Assembly (NCBI GenBank): GCA_964016885.1
Contig: OZ024741.1
Coordinates: 177,258,001 to 177,322,000 of the forward strand
DNA: 64,000 nt
Origin: Eledone cirrhosa
Taxonomy: Eukaryota
Reading direction: 5' to 3'
How positions within the stretch are numbered: position 1 is the first letter of the stretch; every line of letters begins with the position of its first letter. This document shows positions 746-48,210 of the stretch, piece after piece. A program made the translations under genes and the position numbers. A model generated the notes under the pieces. The model was not told the DNA's origin, did not search any database, and was given only the letters and a program-made list of their open reading frames with translations.

Positions 746-1378
746 AACAATATATCTTTCTCTCTGTTATATAAACTATCTCTTTCTCTCTATCACCCAT
801 CTCTCTCTCTCCACCTTCACTCTCATCTCCTCCCCCCTTTTTCATCCTTTCCACCCCCCCCCCCTCCCTAAATAAAATACTTTTTCCTCGCACGTATCCT
901 CCTTTCGTTAATTTTCAAATTTTTTTAATTCATACATTATCTTCCAACGGTTTTCAACCTCTCTATGTAAAACAATATATCTCCTCTCAGTTATAAAAAC
1001 TATCTCTTTCTCTCTATCACCCATCTCTCCCTCTCATCTCCTCCCCTTTTTCATCCTTTCCACCCCCCCTCTCTAAATAAAATATGTTTCCCAATATCAC
1101 ACATCAATCTAAAACCACTTTTCATATGTTGATTTAAAACTGCACTATCCACAAGTGTTTTTTAGACTTCATATCATGTTCTCCTGTTTTATTTGATGAA
1201 AACACAAATATTATTGCATGATGATGTTTGTTTTTGAAATGCGCATAATAAAATACATGGAACTCCTTTAACCATCTTTTGATCTTATATTATGTATACT
1301 CCAGTCCTACAAACTGTAGAGTGCTCCTATCCAATATCTGCATTGCTTTATTGTACTACAATAAAACTCACCTCCTAC
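746..1378 (+). mobile_element. Probable inverted pseudo-LTR/3' UTR of the PLE, with an internal direct duplication (about 746-880 / 971-1085), ending at (TA)n
   Basis: Abuts the RT fragment, carries a hammerhead-like motif on the opposite strand and ends at a (TA)n tract. Confidence 0.55.
1187..1253 (+). ncRNA. Type I hammerhead-like motif (C3U core variant)
   Basis: ttttat-TTGATGA-long helix II (acaaatattatt/gatgatgtttgt)-GAAA-tgcgca-TA-ataaaa; helix I ttttat/ataaaa; palindromic helix III. Confidence 0.65.
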
Positions 1379-1440
1379 ATATATATATATATATATATAT
1401 ATATATATATATATATATATATATATATATATATATATAA

Positions 1441-1580
1441 AACCTATGGCAACATTGAGGACCGAATAAATTAGATTACCGATATAAAAGACACAGAAAC
1501 GAAAAGCGAAAACCAACCAAACAGTGAGTGTGTTCTATTATTAATTCTAGCAATATTACACAAATATGACCCTCCCCGAT
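1441..1580 (+). mobile_element. Solo terminal fragment of the PLE family at 58-62 kb, between (TA)n tracts
   Basis: Reverse-complement match to about 58155-58292 (ggcaacattgaggaccga...gagtgtgttc...atgaccctcccc). Confidence 0.8.
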
Positions 1581-1792
1581 TATATATATATATATATATA
1601 CCAGACTACTCGGCGTCGATGACGCTACTTTTTTCCTAAAAGTCTCAAAAATCCACCATGCCTCCTGGAGGCTGAAGTTTATTTATTAATTTTTTGTTTT
1701 GGTGGGGGGGGGGTCAACATTAGCGTGCGTCCTCAAGGAGGAAGCGACTACGGCGCCTGGAAATATGGCATATATATATATATATATATATA

Positions 1793-3667
1793 TCAGCGCG
1801 ACTTATGTCGGACAGACGGGGCGTTGCCTGGCGGACCGATTCACCGAGCACCTCCGGGATATTCGTCTCGGGGGTAGTTCCCCCATCGCCCGCCACTTTG
1901 GTGGCCCTGGACATTCCGCACGCCATCTCACAGTCTGTGGCCTACTCCAGTGCCACGGAACACCCGCCAATCCCCTTACAGTCGAACAACGAACTATCTT
2001 CATCTTACAGACCCACATTCCCCCGGGCCTGAACTACCCACCCTTATTCCTTAGTCTTCGACCGCCCCCCTCCCCCCACAATTACCCCCACTAACACCAC
2101 TAACAAACCCTTCCTTTTCACCGCCCACCCCACAACTAACAATACTAACACCTCCACTCCACCCCTCATCTGACCACCCTTCCCCAACTAACATACTAAC
2201 ATCCCTCCCTTCTTCTCCTCCTCCCCCCTCCTTATTATCACACGCACACACCCACCGGCACATATATACACGCGCTCACACTAAACACACACCCTACTAC
2301 CACCACTAACCCTCACCCCCACACCTCTCACCCCCACACCGCCATCCCACCACCCCGCAACTAACCTCACTAACACCCCCTAACCCCAAGCACACGAACA
2401 CACGCACCCACTTACACCACCCACCCCACACGCAACTAACATCACTAACACCCCCCAACCCCACGCACACGTACCCACACACCCTCGTACACCACCAACT
2501 CTACACACCCCACCACCACCAACCCCCACTCACACCTGCATTCAACCTCTCCCCACCTCCCGTATACTAACATCCCTTCATCAAACTACACACACACCAG
2601 TACACCACACTCCCTCCATAGAACCACACACACCCTTCTCTCCCCGCTCCACCCACACCCTCGCTCCACACTCACTCATCCCACTAACACCTCTACTAAT
2701 ACACACATACACACACCCTCCTCACTCCAACTTTCACACCTACCCATCCTCGCCCCTTTACCATTCCACCGACTGCTGCTATGCCCTCGGACCACCTCCC
2801 AGCACAAACAGACACACAGCACTCCCACTGCTTGACCACTTCCTGTTGCGCGCGCACCCCACATCTCTCCTCTTCCGACCGTCGCTTCATGGAATACCCG
2901 CACGCAGAAATTGACCAACACAAAATCCGCTATACACCTATGGAATTTACCTACTTTTCAACCATCCTCTTACGTAATCGCCTATATAACTCACCCACAC
3001 ACACACCCCAAAAAAATGTTTTCTTCACACGCCACCTACACCCACAACACGCTTAAAACCCACACACACGTGCTTTCCACCACATATTTACACCCCCAGC
3101 CTCCTGATTCCTCTCCCCCCCTCTATCCACACACTCACAGACACTCCGACCCCCCCCCACACACACCTCTTCCTGAACATGCAACCCCGTTCTTCCCCCA
3201 ACCCTTACTTTCACATACACACACACACACACACACGTACACCTACACACACACCACCACCTTCAGCCCTCCCCGCTCGGACACCCCATCTCCCTCTCCC
3301 CACTCCACCCGCCACCACCCCTACACACCCCACACCTTCCACCACCTGTATTACCCCCTTTTAATTTCAGTTTATTTTGATCATGCTTTTATATTTAAAT
3401 TTATTTCAATCCTTGTATTTTGATCATGCTTTATTTTTATTTTTATCTTTATTTTTTTTTTCCATTCGCACCGTTTCCTTTCGCTATATGTATCTCCACC
3501 ACTCCCCTACACACCCATTGAACTCTGTTCCCACACACTTCTCACCTGAGGAATGGCTTATGCCCGAAACGTCGTCCCTCACCAACACCCCACTCTCCAG
3601 AGCGTGAAATTAATAAACATTCGTTGTACTGCCTCTCTGTTTTGTCCCTGTTCAATTTTTTCCATTA
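1793..3667 (+). mobile_element. 5'-truncated PLE (Neptune-like): GIY-YIG C-terminus plus long C/A-rich 3' UTR, flanked by (TA)n
   Basis: YVGQTGRCLADRFTEHLRDIR...PIARHF...H...EQRTIFILQTHIPPGLN, stop at 2094; terminal ctgagga-atggcttatgccc-gaaacgtc motif at 3546-3576 resembles a PLE pLTR hammerhead core. Confidence 0.85.
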
Positions 3668-46890: not shown

Positions 46891-46964
46891 ATATATATAT
46901 ATATATATATATATATATATATATATATATATATATATATATATATGATATGTATGTATACATC

Positions 46965-47228
46965 CCAAAATTCAGCTCAAAAGCGACACAGAGGAGACTG
47001 AGGTTAGCTGGACATGCTCACCGACATCCAGAGTTGACATTGCACTCAGTGCTCCTTTGGGAGCCCCTACATGGACACACTAGAAGAGGAAGACCAAGGT
47101 TAACGTATGTTGATGCCCTAAGGAGAGACACTGGTCTGTTGGAGATGCAGGACATGGCTGCGATAATGAGGGACAGAGACCGCTGGAGAGAACTCGTCCA
47201 TGGATCTCGGGAATTTTACCCGCCTTAG
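46965..47228 (+). mobile_element. 3' end fragment of an RTE-like LINE within (TA)n
   Basis: [12 protein letters not shown]...[21 protein letters not shown]...RDRWR is a typical LINE ORF2 C-terminus; the stop codon abuts (AT)n. Confidence 0.8.
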
Positions 47229-47387
47229 ATATATATATATATATATATACATATATAAATATATATATATATATATATATATATATATATATATATATAT
47301 ATATATATATATATATATATATATATATATATATATATATATATATATATATATATATATATGTATATATATATATATATATATATA

Positions 47388-48210
47388 TGGAATGCACCCG
47401 AGCCTGTGTTTGTGCGTGTGTGCTTGCAACGATCTGCGTTGATATACACGCATATGCGGAAATAGGAACTGTTGTCCTTTGCATTTCCGGATCTTGACAC
47501 TCAGGTTTTGGTGTATTACACTACACTTGTATTTCATTACCTCTTAAAACGCACCATTCGATGATGAAATAAGAATTATAATTATTTACACTTCTCGATT
47601 CTGACATACATGTTTTCCACTGCAGTTAATATTTTTCAAATCTTTCAAATTTGGATGTTGGTTGTAACAAACACGCATTTTTTATTTGTTTGGCACCCCC
47701 ACCACGTGAAATGGTGGCAGGATAGATGCCAACCTACACACAAAAATTCTTCAGAACATAGCAGCAGCACACTAAAGCTGACCTCCCAGCTGACCCCTTA
47801 ACACCACTACGACTACCAACACAATGGAGGAGATCAGCTGTACTTAAACATCAGGACAAAAACAACTACAACAGATCGTCTTGCCTCAGAAAAATTTCTA
47901 TAGATTTTTGACTGAGGAATGTTCTCACAACTGACCAATGGGATGCGAGCGTGTCCTATGACGCCGAAATTCGTTTGTTCTAACGCATATGGTTCCAATT
48001 CCTCAGGGGAATAACAATACAACCAGGAGTTGGACATATCGATGTATTAACGGAGTAAAACACAGTTCAACAACATGTGTACCTGTCTTTCCCACACCAA
48101 TTCTGACTGCCTGAAGATGCCACAGCCAATGATGGCTGTCAGCGAAATATATATAGCAGTATATCTATAATTTATAATAAGCCAAATTTAACATACTTGA
48201 ATTAATCATT
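47388..48210 (+). mobile_element. ~0.85-kb non-autonomous hammerhead element, copy 2
   Basis: Homologous to 38618-39525; HHR at 48106-48160. Confidence 0.85.

What the first reader, a model, noticed from the sequence alone, without database searches (positions are those of the whole stretch)
1187..48160. About 20 additional hammerheads from roughly a dozen families share a palindromic helix III and (TA)n insertion context
Seen: HHR motifs at 1187, 3546 (core only), 3895, 19868, 19975, 21059, 21141, 24614, 25182, 30190, 38429, 38771, 40236, 40595, 43421 (degenerate), 44067, 44587, 44787, 44874 and 48106. Helices differ in sequence but pair. Helix III is nearly always a palindrome (atgcgcat, acagatctgt, atatatat, agtact, actaattagt, acatatgt, actagt; acgcgt in the array). 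Established: PLE pseudo-LTRs carry minimal type I HHRs whose palindromic helix III is thought to permit dimeric cleavage. Inference: a dense community of autonomous PLEs and non-autonomous ribozyme elements uses one microsatellite-targeted mobilisation route.
Basis: partly seen in the sequence, partly recalled or inferred. Interest (0 to 1): 0.8.

Follow-up and report, generated by a model that had tools for sequence, protein, structure and literature searches.

The report
Penelope-borne hammerhead crowd in (TA)n
This stretch of an animal genome, probably an octopus, is crowded with hammerhead-shaped RNA motifs that mark the ends of Penelope-type jumping genes and their small passengers inserted at TA repeats; this is a known kind of element at unusually high density, and copies with a missing or mismatched ribozyme core spread the same way, so self-cutting is likely not required for the jump.

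Summary
All 20 sites are type I hammerheads or decayed ones, from 11 families: 12 intact, 7 weakened, 1 degenerate; 16 have a perfectly palindromic helix III. A strict scan gives 9 hits against 0 in 100 shuffles. (TA)n lies 3' of the ribozyme far more often than chance. Four more motifs were missed. Evenly spaced samples of the 3.0-Gb genome give about 65 motifs per Mb (roughly 190,000). They are 3' ends and pseudo-LTRs of Hydra- and Neptune-type Penelope-like elements (PLEs) and of non-coding passengers. Palindromic helix III, (TA)n preference, inverted arms and tails are all published, so the core finding is a known kind. 'One route' is only partly right: at least two PLE clades supply enzymes, and the ribozyme looks dispensable. 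In one Hydra family 1,372 copies carry a C3·A8 mismatch on both arms, 34 of 47 sampled arms stop inside loop II, and a tRNA-bearing repeat without a hammerhead shows the same insertion signature. Cleavage and expression are untested. This scan had already noted two-armed retrozyme insertions and the U3-A8 Hydra motif elsewhere in this genome.

The parts
1186..1254 (+). Hammerhead, family P (8-nt palindromic helix III), C3U copy; inverted arm of a Hydra-type PLE
   Evidence: coding remnant at 1-794 continues into the left neighbour L196 where the matching 3' motif lies
1..794 (-). Hydra-type PLE reverse transcriptase remnant
   Evidence: 40-46% aa identity to the intact Hydra ORF of L198
1795..2088 (+). 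GIY-YIG-like endonuclease remnant upstream of the 3546 motif
   Evidence: ORF translation; no Pfam hit at E<=0.01; motif recognised from recall
3544..3575 (+). Minimal hammerhead, family Q, 4-nt helix III, 2-bp helix I
3893..3942 (+). Intact hammerhead, family J (related to the 310-bp array unit); relatives carry U3-A8
19868..19933 (-). Intact hammerhead, family I
19975..20039 (-). Hammerhead, family I (with family X the most frequent in the genome sample)
21058..21096 (-). Hammerhead, family N, helix III broken; 3' pseudo-LTR of the PLE at 21878-23878
21141..21179 (+). Hammerhead, family N, U4C copy (opposed arm)
21878..23878 (-). Decayed PLE ORF (RT with DKx motif, C-terminal GIY-YIG)
   Evidence: PF01541, E 6.5e-5
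24613..24651 (+). Hammerhead, family N, weak helix I (inverted arm)
25181..25260 (+). Hammerhead, family F (older copy), long helix II, 10-nt palindromic helix III
25694..26305 (.). Family T: 258-bp tRNA-like unit in tandem plus inverted arms ending in (TA)n; no hammerhead found
30189..30272 (+). Hammerhead, family F, U4A copy
37969..38374 (-).
8525..8665 (+). Family X short copy, 5' end inside loop II (no CUGA box)
9357..9586 (.). Family X short two-armed insertion
19515..19701 (.). Family X short two-armed insertion
25480..25677 (.). Family X short two-armed insertion (older)
38428..38521 (+). Intact hammerhead, family K, 61-nt helix II domain
38771..38825 (-). Hammerhead, family G (about 830-bp non-coding element 38715-39521)
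39850..39931 (-).
40236..40278 (+). Intact hammerhead, family H
40595..40637 (-). Intact hammerhead, family H, opposed copy
40752..40808 (-).
40787..42053 (+). 5'-truncated Hydra-type ORF remnant
   Evidence: 28-35% aa identity to L198 ORF
43416..43472 (+). Degenerate hammerhead, family S, 3' end of the Hydra remnant at 40787-42053
43846..44718 (+). Family F young insertion: 522-bp unit, 1.7 tandem units with hammerheads at 44067-44148 and 44587-44668, short inverted arm to the left, (TA)n at both ends
44787..44924 (.). Family M opposed hammerhead pair (cores 44831-, 44880+), imperfect 16-nt palindromic helix III
48106..48160 (+). Hammerhead, family G
58363..58406 (-). Weak hammerhead, family R, in the 3' UTR of the Neptune-type PLE at 58673-62224
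58673..62224 (-). Neptune-type PLE ORF (RT, CX2-5CxxC linker, GIY-YIG), one in-frame stop

Best explanation
These are type I hammerhead motifs in the 3' ends of at least 11 families of Penelope-like elements and their non-coding passengers, which were likely inserted by Hydra- and Neptune-type PLE enzymes cutting (TA)n and reverse-transcribing one RNA from both cut strands, with ribozyme cleavage probably optional. Shown: motif reality, 3' position, (TA)n at the outward 3' ends, head-to-head arms with one short and one long fixed end, shared alleles between arms, PLE coding remnants upstream in several families. Inferred: the GIY-YIG enzyme nicks both strands of a TA tract; each nick primes at an AU-rich site of the element RNA (two fixed sites per family); both cDNAs run 5'-ward, truncate and join head to head. 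For tandem passengers (family F, the 310-bp array) the template is likely a circle or multimer, which a dimeric hammerhead could make. For Hydra family X the commonest template begins inside loop II, likely at a pseudo-LTR transcription start, and so cannot cut itself in cis.
For: Motifs: 9 vs 0 of 100 shuffles; 62 hits in 960 kb vs 0-5 in 10 shuffles, 48 of 62 with fully self-complementary helix III. (TA)6+ within 300 nt downstream for 23 of 29 sampled motifs vs 19.6% background; (CA)n 4 of 29, (GA)n 1 of 29. Outward 3' ends at (TA)n: F 41 of 44, X long 39 of 42, X short 55 of 57, T 29 of 34. One short plus one long end in 13 of 13 two-armed long X insertions, the set whose query did not favour either end. 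Arms agree at 139 of 151 polymorphic sites vs 57% between insertions (X), 37 of 40 vs 65% (F); 27 U/U, 9 C/C, 0 mixed core-allele pairs. Family X has intact 784-786-codon frames with RWR, DKT and CxCX5C motifs, the Hydra diagnostics of PMC8557442 section 11. F units run across the cleavage site (q297) and end at q358 or q478. Dispensability: 1,372 exact C3·A8 copies vs 2,885 U3-A8; 7 of 10 chosen C3·A8 loci are two-armed with the mismatch on both arms; 34 of 47 sampled X arms start at -5..+16, inside loop II, 3 of 47 reach the CUGA box, 2 of 47 start near the cleavage site; 21,820 vs 3,306 exact matches across that point; family T has the signature and no hammerhead found in 25 loci.
Against: No cleavage or expression data. 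Helices covary within families (family F helix II, family J core C3-G8 vs U3-A8), which argues that the fold is selected and so matters at some step. That C3·A8 is inactive is recalled; the paper I sought was not held and two searches found nothing. None of the 10 C3·A8 loci had a whole ORF, so they could have been helped in trans. Allele sharing between arms could also come from gene conversion. Enzyme partners of F, G, H, I, J, K, M and T were not identified. 5 of 17 two-armed F insertions and 3 of 27 short X insertions break the two-end rule. The transcription-start reading rests on a recalled initiator consensus.
Confidence: 0.8

Rival explanations
1. Hammerhead cleavage and circularisation are required for every family: the RNA is cut to monomers by dimeric ribozymes, ligated, and copied rolling-circle style by PLE enzymes.
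For: Model of PMC4209133 and PMC7229834; F copies cross the cleavage site and reach more than 4 units (L019); dimer folding is favoured for all 6-10-nt perfect palindromes (monomer +1.3 to +6.0, duplex -3.2 to -13.6 kcal/mol); covariation in helices.
Against: Core-mismatched and core-less X copies and hammerhead-less family T carry the same insertion signature; Naiads lack canonical hammerheads yet amplify (PMC8557442).
Confidence: 0.15
2. The (TA)n tracts are made or expanded by the insertions (slippage at AU-rich priming sites) instead of being pre-existing targets.
For: Both fixed ends have TA microhomology; the bias is 3'-sided; no empty sites were examined.
Against: Two-armed insertions have (TA)n at both outer ends; (TA)n preference is reported for Hydra and for cephalopod Naiads (PMC8557442 section 11 and File S1).
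Confidence: 0.15
3. The palindromic helix III pairs RNAs from different loci in trans, and that RNA dimer supplies the two arms of each insertion.
For: Self-duplex energies; arms overlap in template range, so the RNA is read twice.
Against: 0 mixed pairs among 36 (about 13 expected from allele frequencies); arms share rare variants. A homodimer from one locus is not excluded.
Confidence: 0.05
4. The inverted arm is a fold-back copy of the first cDNA (self-priming).
For: Arms share alleles; self-priming was proposed for rotifer Penelope (PMC3846280, on an antisense template).
Against: In 7 of 14 X pairs the short-ended arm reaches further 5' while the other arm carries the extra 3' tail, so neither arm contains the other.
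Confidence: 0.1
5. The motifs are chance matches in AT-rich DNA.
For: Rfam found none; the bare CUGANGA box occurs about 17 times per shuffle.
Against: 0 full motifs in 100 shuffles; multi-copy families with covarying helices.
Confidence: 0.01

Closest known systems
PLE pseudo-LTR hammerheads, including min-HHRs and the U3-A8 variant (Cervera and De la Pena 2014, PMC4209133; parts 1-2 of 4 read, one of two supplements searched)
   Same: Type I topology, unpaired base before helix II, palindromic helix III, many families per genome, mostly solo motifs, opposed pairs 100-700 bp apart.
   Different: Helix III is mostly 6-10 nt (up to 19) and the helix II domain 12-61 nt; about 65 motifs per Mb. 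No cephalopod term was found in the supplement file that could be searched.
Hydra clade of PLEs (Craig et al. 2021, PMC8557442; abstract, passages, section 11, supplement search)
   Same: Family X has RWR, DKT, CxCX5C, C-terminal GIY-YIG, a hammerhead and (TA)n insertion; inverted truncated arm with a one-sided tail.
   Different: 3.54-kb unit (paper: generally under 3 kb); tail about 78 nt (paper: 30-40 bp for Naiads and canonical PLEs); a C3·A8 lineage and a dominant 5' stop inside loop II.
Neptune clade of PLEs (as described in PMC8557442)
   Same: 58673-62224 has RT, a CX2-5CxxC linker and C-terminal GIY-YIG; ends at (TA)n.
   Different: No tree against reference elements was built; Nematis shares the linker, so the label is tentative.
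Metazoan non-LTR retrozymes (PMC7229834, parts 2-3 of 6 read; Li et al. 2026, 10.64898/2026.07.22.740005, parts 1-3 of 5 read)
   Same: Non-coding tandem units with type I hammerheads (family F 522 bp, 310-bp array), proposed PLE dependence.
   Different: F is mostly dispersed one- to four-unit insertions with inverted arms and two fixed TA-primed ends; circular RNA not shown here. Published counts: axolotl 126,247, coral over 6,000, mussel about 5,000, by other descriptors.

Membership tests
Type I hammerhead ribozyme | CUGANGA and GAAA core with A15.1-U16.1 and H17 | tested here: met
   Intact core in 16 of 20 sites; substituted in 1193, 21146, 30195, 43421
Type I hammerhead ribozyme | Three helices, helix I open-ended | tested here: met
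   12 of 20 fully; 9 strict hits vs 0 in 100 shuffles
Type I hammerhead ribozyme | Self-cleavage | not testable with these tools
   No assay
PLE-type dimeric hammerhead | Palindromic helix III unstable as monomer | tested here: met
   16 of 20 perfect palindromes; monomer hairpins unfavourable, duplexes favourable; families X and M are stable as monomers
EN+ Penelope-like element | Single ORF with RT and GIY-YIG | tested here: met
   L198 intact frames; window remnants
EN+ Penelope-like element | Pseudo-LTR or tandem structure, inverted 5'-truncated arm, one-sided tail | tested here: met
   Families X, F, T
Hydra clade (family X) | RWK-like motif, DKT, CxCX5C linker, C-terminal EN | tested here: met
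   L198 translation against PMC8557442 section 11
Hydra clade (family X) | Placement in an RT tree with reference Hydra elements | not tested
Neptune clade (58673-62224) | CX2-5CxxC linker between RT and C-terminal EN | tested here: inconclusive
   Motif present but shared with Nematis; no tree
Non-LTR retrozyme (family F) | Non-coding head-to-tail units each with a type I hammerhead | tested here: met
   522-bp unit, tandem in the window and in L019
Non-LTR retrozyme (family F) | Circular and linear monomeric RNA in vivo | not testable with these tools
Non-LTR retrozyme (family T) | Hammerhead in the unit | tested here: not met
   None in the unit in 25 loci with C3-G8 or U3-A8 descriptors; other ribozyme classes were checked only by Rfam, which also missed the hammerheads

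The most novel reading that the evidence does not exclude
In this genome PLE enzymes mobilise any small RNA that offers two AU-rich priming sites, hammerhead or not. The ribozyme is a passenger or brake: the Hydra mRNA starts inside loop II, and cutting at the downstream copy removes the 3' priming sites and diverts copying to 137-bp stubs. A 258-bp tRNA-derived repeat would be a SINE-like element mobilised by a PLE, which my two searches did not find in print. The genome would hold the densest hammerhead population among the counts in the papers read.
Probability: 0.3. Interest if true: 0.72.

Novelty: new member of a known kind. Interest (0 to 1): 0.42.

Why it matters
The role of the hammerhead in endonuclease-bearing PLEs is called unclear in PMC8557442. 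This genome offers a natural test: sister lineages of one Hydra element with paired (U3-A8) and mismatched (C3·A8) cores, each in over a thousand copies, intact ORFs in the paired lineage, core-less stubs and a hammerhead-less passenger. It also gives a large source of natural hammerhead variants (roughly 190,000) with long palindromic helix III for testing dimeric cleavage.

Tried and rejected
Rfam scan: no hammerhead family; not informative, the models miss these builds. My first descriptor was too strict (2 hits). I first read 43421 as a coding fragment (note 1); one search showed that it is a degenerate hammerhead and that the protein match was the translated inverted arm. Bulk U3-A8 scan is not enriched (7 hits vs 1-10 in shuffles), so that variant rests on family X counts and on family J relatives. 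The hammerhead-like string on the antisense strand of family T (26054-) was rejected: C3 is A in the copies printed and helix I does not pair. 24185- is a truncated family N pseudo-LTR and 8935- has no convincing helices. Proximity of family M to the Hydra remnant at 45269-46112 was rejected as membership because a TA tract separates them. 5' ends at the cleavage site, a possible footprint of in vivo cutting: only 2 of 47 X arms. Sequencing runs: no RNA holder listed; no reads were laid. Literature searches with no relevant result: hammerhead+octopus, twin priming+Penelope-like, non-autonomous Penelope+tRNA+SINE, SINE+'mobilized by Penelope'. PMC10886601 and PMC3884650: passages seen, not relevant. 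bioRxiv supplements were closed and file 1 of PMC4209133 could not be searched; they could list cephalopod motifs.
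Full report
Setting. The window is G000:C2:177,258,001-177,322,000 in a 2,996-Mb genome. The best relative of the window's longest reverse transcriptase is an Octopus vulgaris protein at 72% identity, so the host is probably an octopod. The window has 63 (TA)6+ tracts in its first 48,960 bases.

Observation. A type I descriptor (CUGANGA, helix II, GAAA, helix III, UH, helix I) gave 9 hits in 1-48,900 and 0 in each of 100 block dinucleotide shuffles; cores with one substitution gave 4 hits against a mean of 0.24. 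Site-by-site reading shows 12 of 20 intact, 7 weakened and 1 degenerate (43421). Helix III is a perfect palindrome in 16 of 20. The descriptor only needs its first inner pair and gives palindromes a scoring bonus, yet 48 of 62 genome-sample hits are fully self-complementary. The sites fall into 11 families. Four more motifs were missed: 38072-, 39924-, 40800-, 58401-. Rfam found none of them. Helices covary: family F helix II shows A-U, U-A and G-C at one pair, and family J has C3-G8 at 3901 but U3-A8 in relatives.

(TA)n context. For 19 sites the median distance to a downstream tract is 166 nt against about 800 for random placement (P=0.0004); upstream is ordinary (P=0.32). In 60 evenly spaced 10-kb loci, 23 of 29 motifs have (TA)6+ within 300 nt downstream against 19.6% of background positions in the same loci; (CA)n and (GA)n are not enriched. 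Hits are not independent, since some are arms of one insertion.

Density. 96 evenly spaced 10-kb loci gave 62 hits (10 shuffles: 0-5), 65 per Mb, bootstrap 46-85, or about 140,000-250,000 for the genome. The window is about three times richer than average. Published totals by other descriptors are 126,247 (axolotl), over 6,000 (coral) and about 5,000 (mussel) (PMC7229834).

What carries them. Families P, S and X are ends of Hydra-type PLEs; N, Q and R follow GIY-YIG-bearing ORF remnants, R with a Neptune-type linker. Family X is complete in L198: 3.54-kb tandem units, 784-786 open codons, RWR, DKT and CxCX5C motifs, and a U3-A8 hammerhead, matching the Hydra description. Family F is a young non-coding 522-bp unit (97-100% identity among the top 40 of 2,972 candidates). 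Partners of F, G, H, I, J, K and M were not found.

Insertion signature. Outward 3' ends meet (TA)n in 41 of 44 (F; 27 of 30 loci, 3 redundant dropped), 39 of 42 (X long; 29 of 30), 55 of 57 (X short; 30) and 29 of 34 (T; 21 of 25) cases. Each family has two preferred ends. Two-armed insertions pair one short with one long end in 13 of 13 long X, 24 of 27 short X and 12 of 17 F cases; only the long X query was neutral between ends. Arms share subfamily and rare alleles, and opposed core alleles on C1 were 27 U/U, 9 C/C, 0 mixed (from the first 100 and 33 listed places). In 7 of 14 X pairs neither arm contains the other. The simplest reading, inferred, is two target-primed cDNAs from one RNA source. 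Inverted arms and one-sided tails are described in PMC8557442 and PMC3846280, and earlier notes of this scan reached a similar two-armed reading for other families; I reached mine before the look-up.

Is the ribozyme needed? Three results argue no. First, 1,372 exact copies of family X have C3·A8 against 2,885 with U3-A8; 7 of 10 chosen loci have the mismatch on both arms, most with RT-EN remnants near 90% identical to L198, none with a whole ORF. That this mismatch blocks cutting is recalled, not checked. Second, 34 of 47 sampled X arms begin at -5..+16, inside loop II, only 3 reach the CUGA box and 2 begin near the cleavage site; exact matches fall from 21,820 to 3,306 across that point, partly through pattern length and variants. 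Several ends sit at -3 to -5, on an initiator-like sequence (recalled); a pseudo-LTR promoter is shown for Drosophila Penelope (PMC2377424, passages). Third, family T, a 258-bp tRNA-like unit, shows tandem and inverted arms in (TA)n with no hammerhead found. Against this, the fold is conserved by covariation, F units run through the cleavage site in tandem as a circle model predicts, and dimers are energetically favoured. The ribozyme may shape RNA for tandem passengers while being optional for integration.

Comparison and verdict. Palindromic helix III, dimer requirement, many families per genome and the U3-A8 variant are in PMC4209133; (TA)n preference of Hydra, Neptune and Naiad, including cephalopod Naiads, in PMC8557442; retrozymes as PLE derivatives in PMC7229834 and the 2026 preprint. 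The finding is real and is a new, very dense example of a known kind. The added value is the natural test of ribozyme function and the tRNA-bearing passenger. Interest 0.42.

Noticed in passing
window 25694-26305; loci L151-L175: 258-bp tRNA-like unit (ARAGORN and Rfam tRNA hits) in tandem arrays of up to about 17 units and in two-armed insertions; 14 of 14 two-armed copies have one end at q27-32; 29 of 34 outward ends at (TA)n; no hammerhead found. Candidate PLE-mobilised SINE-like element.
   Followed up: partly
window 8525-8665, 9357-9586, 19515-19701, 25480-25677: Short stubs (about 137 bp and 60 bp arms) of Hydra family X with a fixed 5' end inside hammerhead loop II, next to an initiator-like sequence (recalled consensus).
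   Followed up: yes
L198 (G000:C1:91473001-91483000): Head-to-tail array of 3.54-kb Hydra elements with intact ORFs and U3-A8 hammerheads.
   Followed up: partly
window 48960-57760: 28.4 copies of a 310-bp hammerhead unit at 99% identity, related to family J (3895); outside this finding.
   Followed up: no
window 43416-43472, 40752-40808; L167, L174, L206: Family S carries C at core position 4 in all copies seen (CCGAWGA).
   Followed up: partly
window 45065-46888: Decayed Hydra-like two-armed insertion in (TA)n with no recognisable hammerhead.
   Followed up: partly
window 61084-61565: Asparagine-rich low-complexity stretch inside the Neptune-type ORF, reminiscent of N-rich inserts in rotifer Penelope ORFs (PMC3846280, passages).
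   Followed up: no
window 46978-47228 and 57801-58051: Two 97% identical fragments resembling an RTE-type LINE 3' end (recalled), each flanked by (TA)n on both sides.
   Followed up: no
window 16199-16379, 21685-21872, 28491-28679: Three copies of a SINE-like repeat that do not sit in (TA)n tracts, an informal negative control.
   Followed up: no
window 9781-10742: 355-bp 98% inverted repeat with an internal duplicated segment, bounded by (TA)n; no hammerhead hit.
   Followed up: no
window 21302-21501: 200-N assembly gap inside the family N element, so its 3' arm arrangement is uncertain.
   Followed up: no
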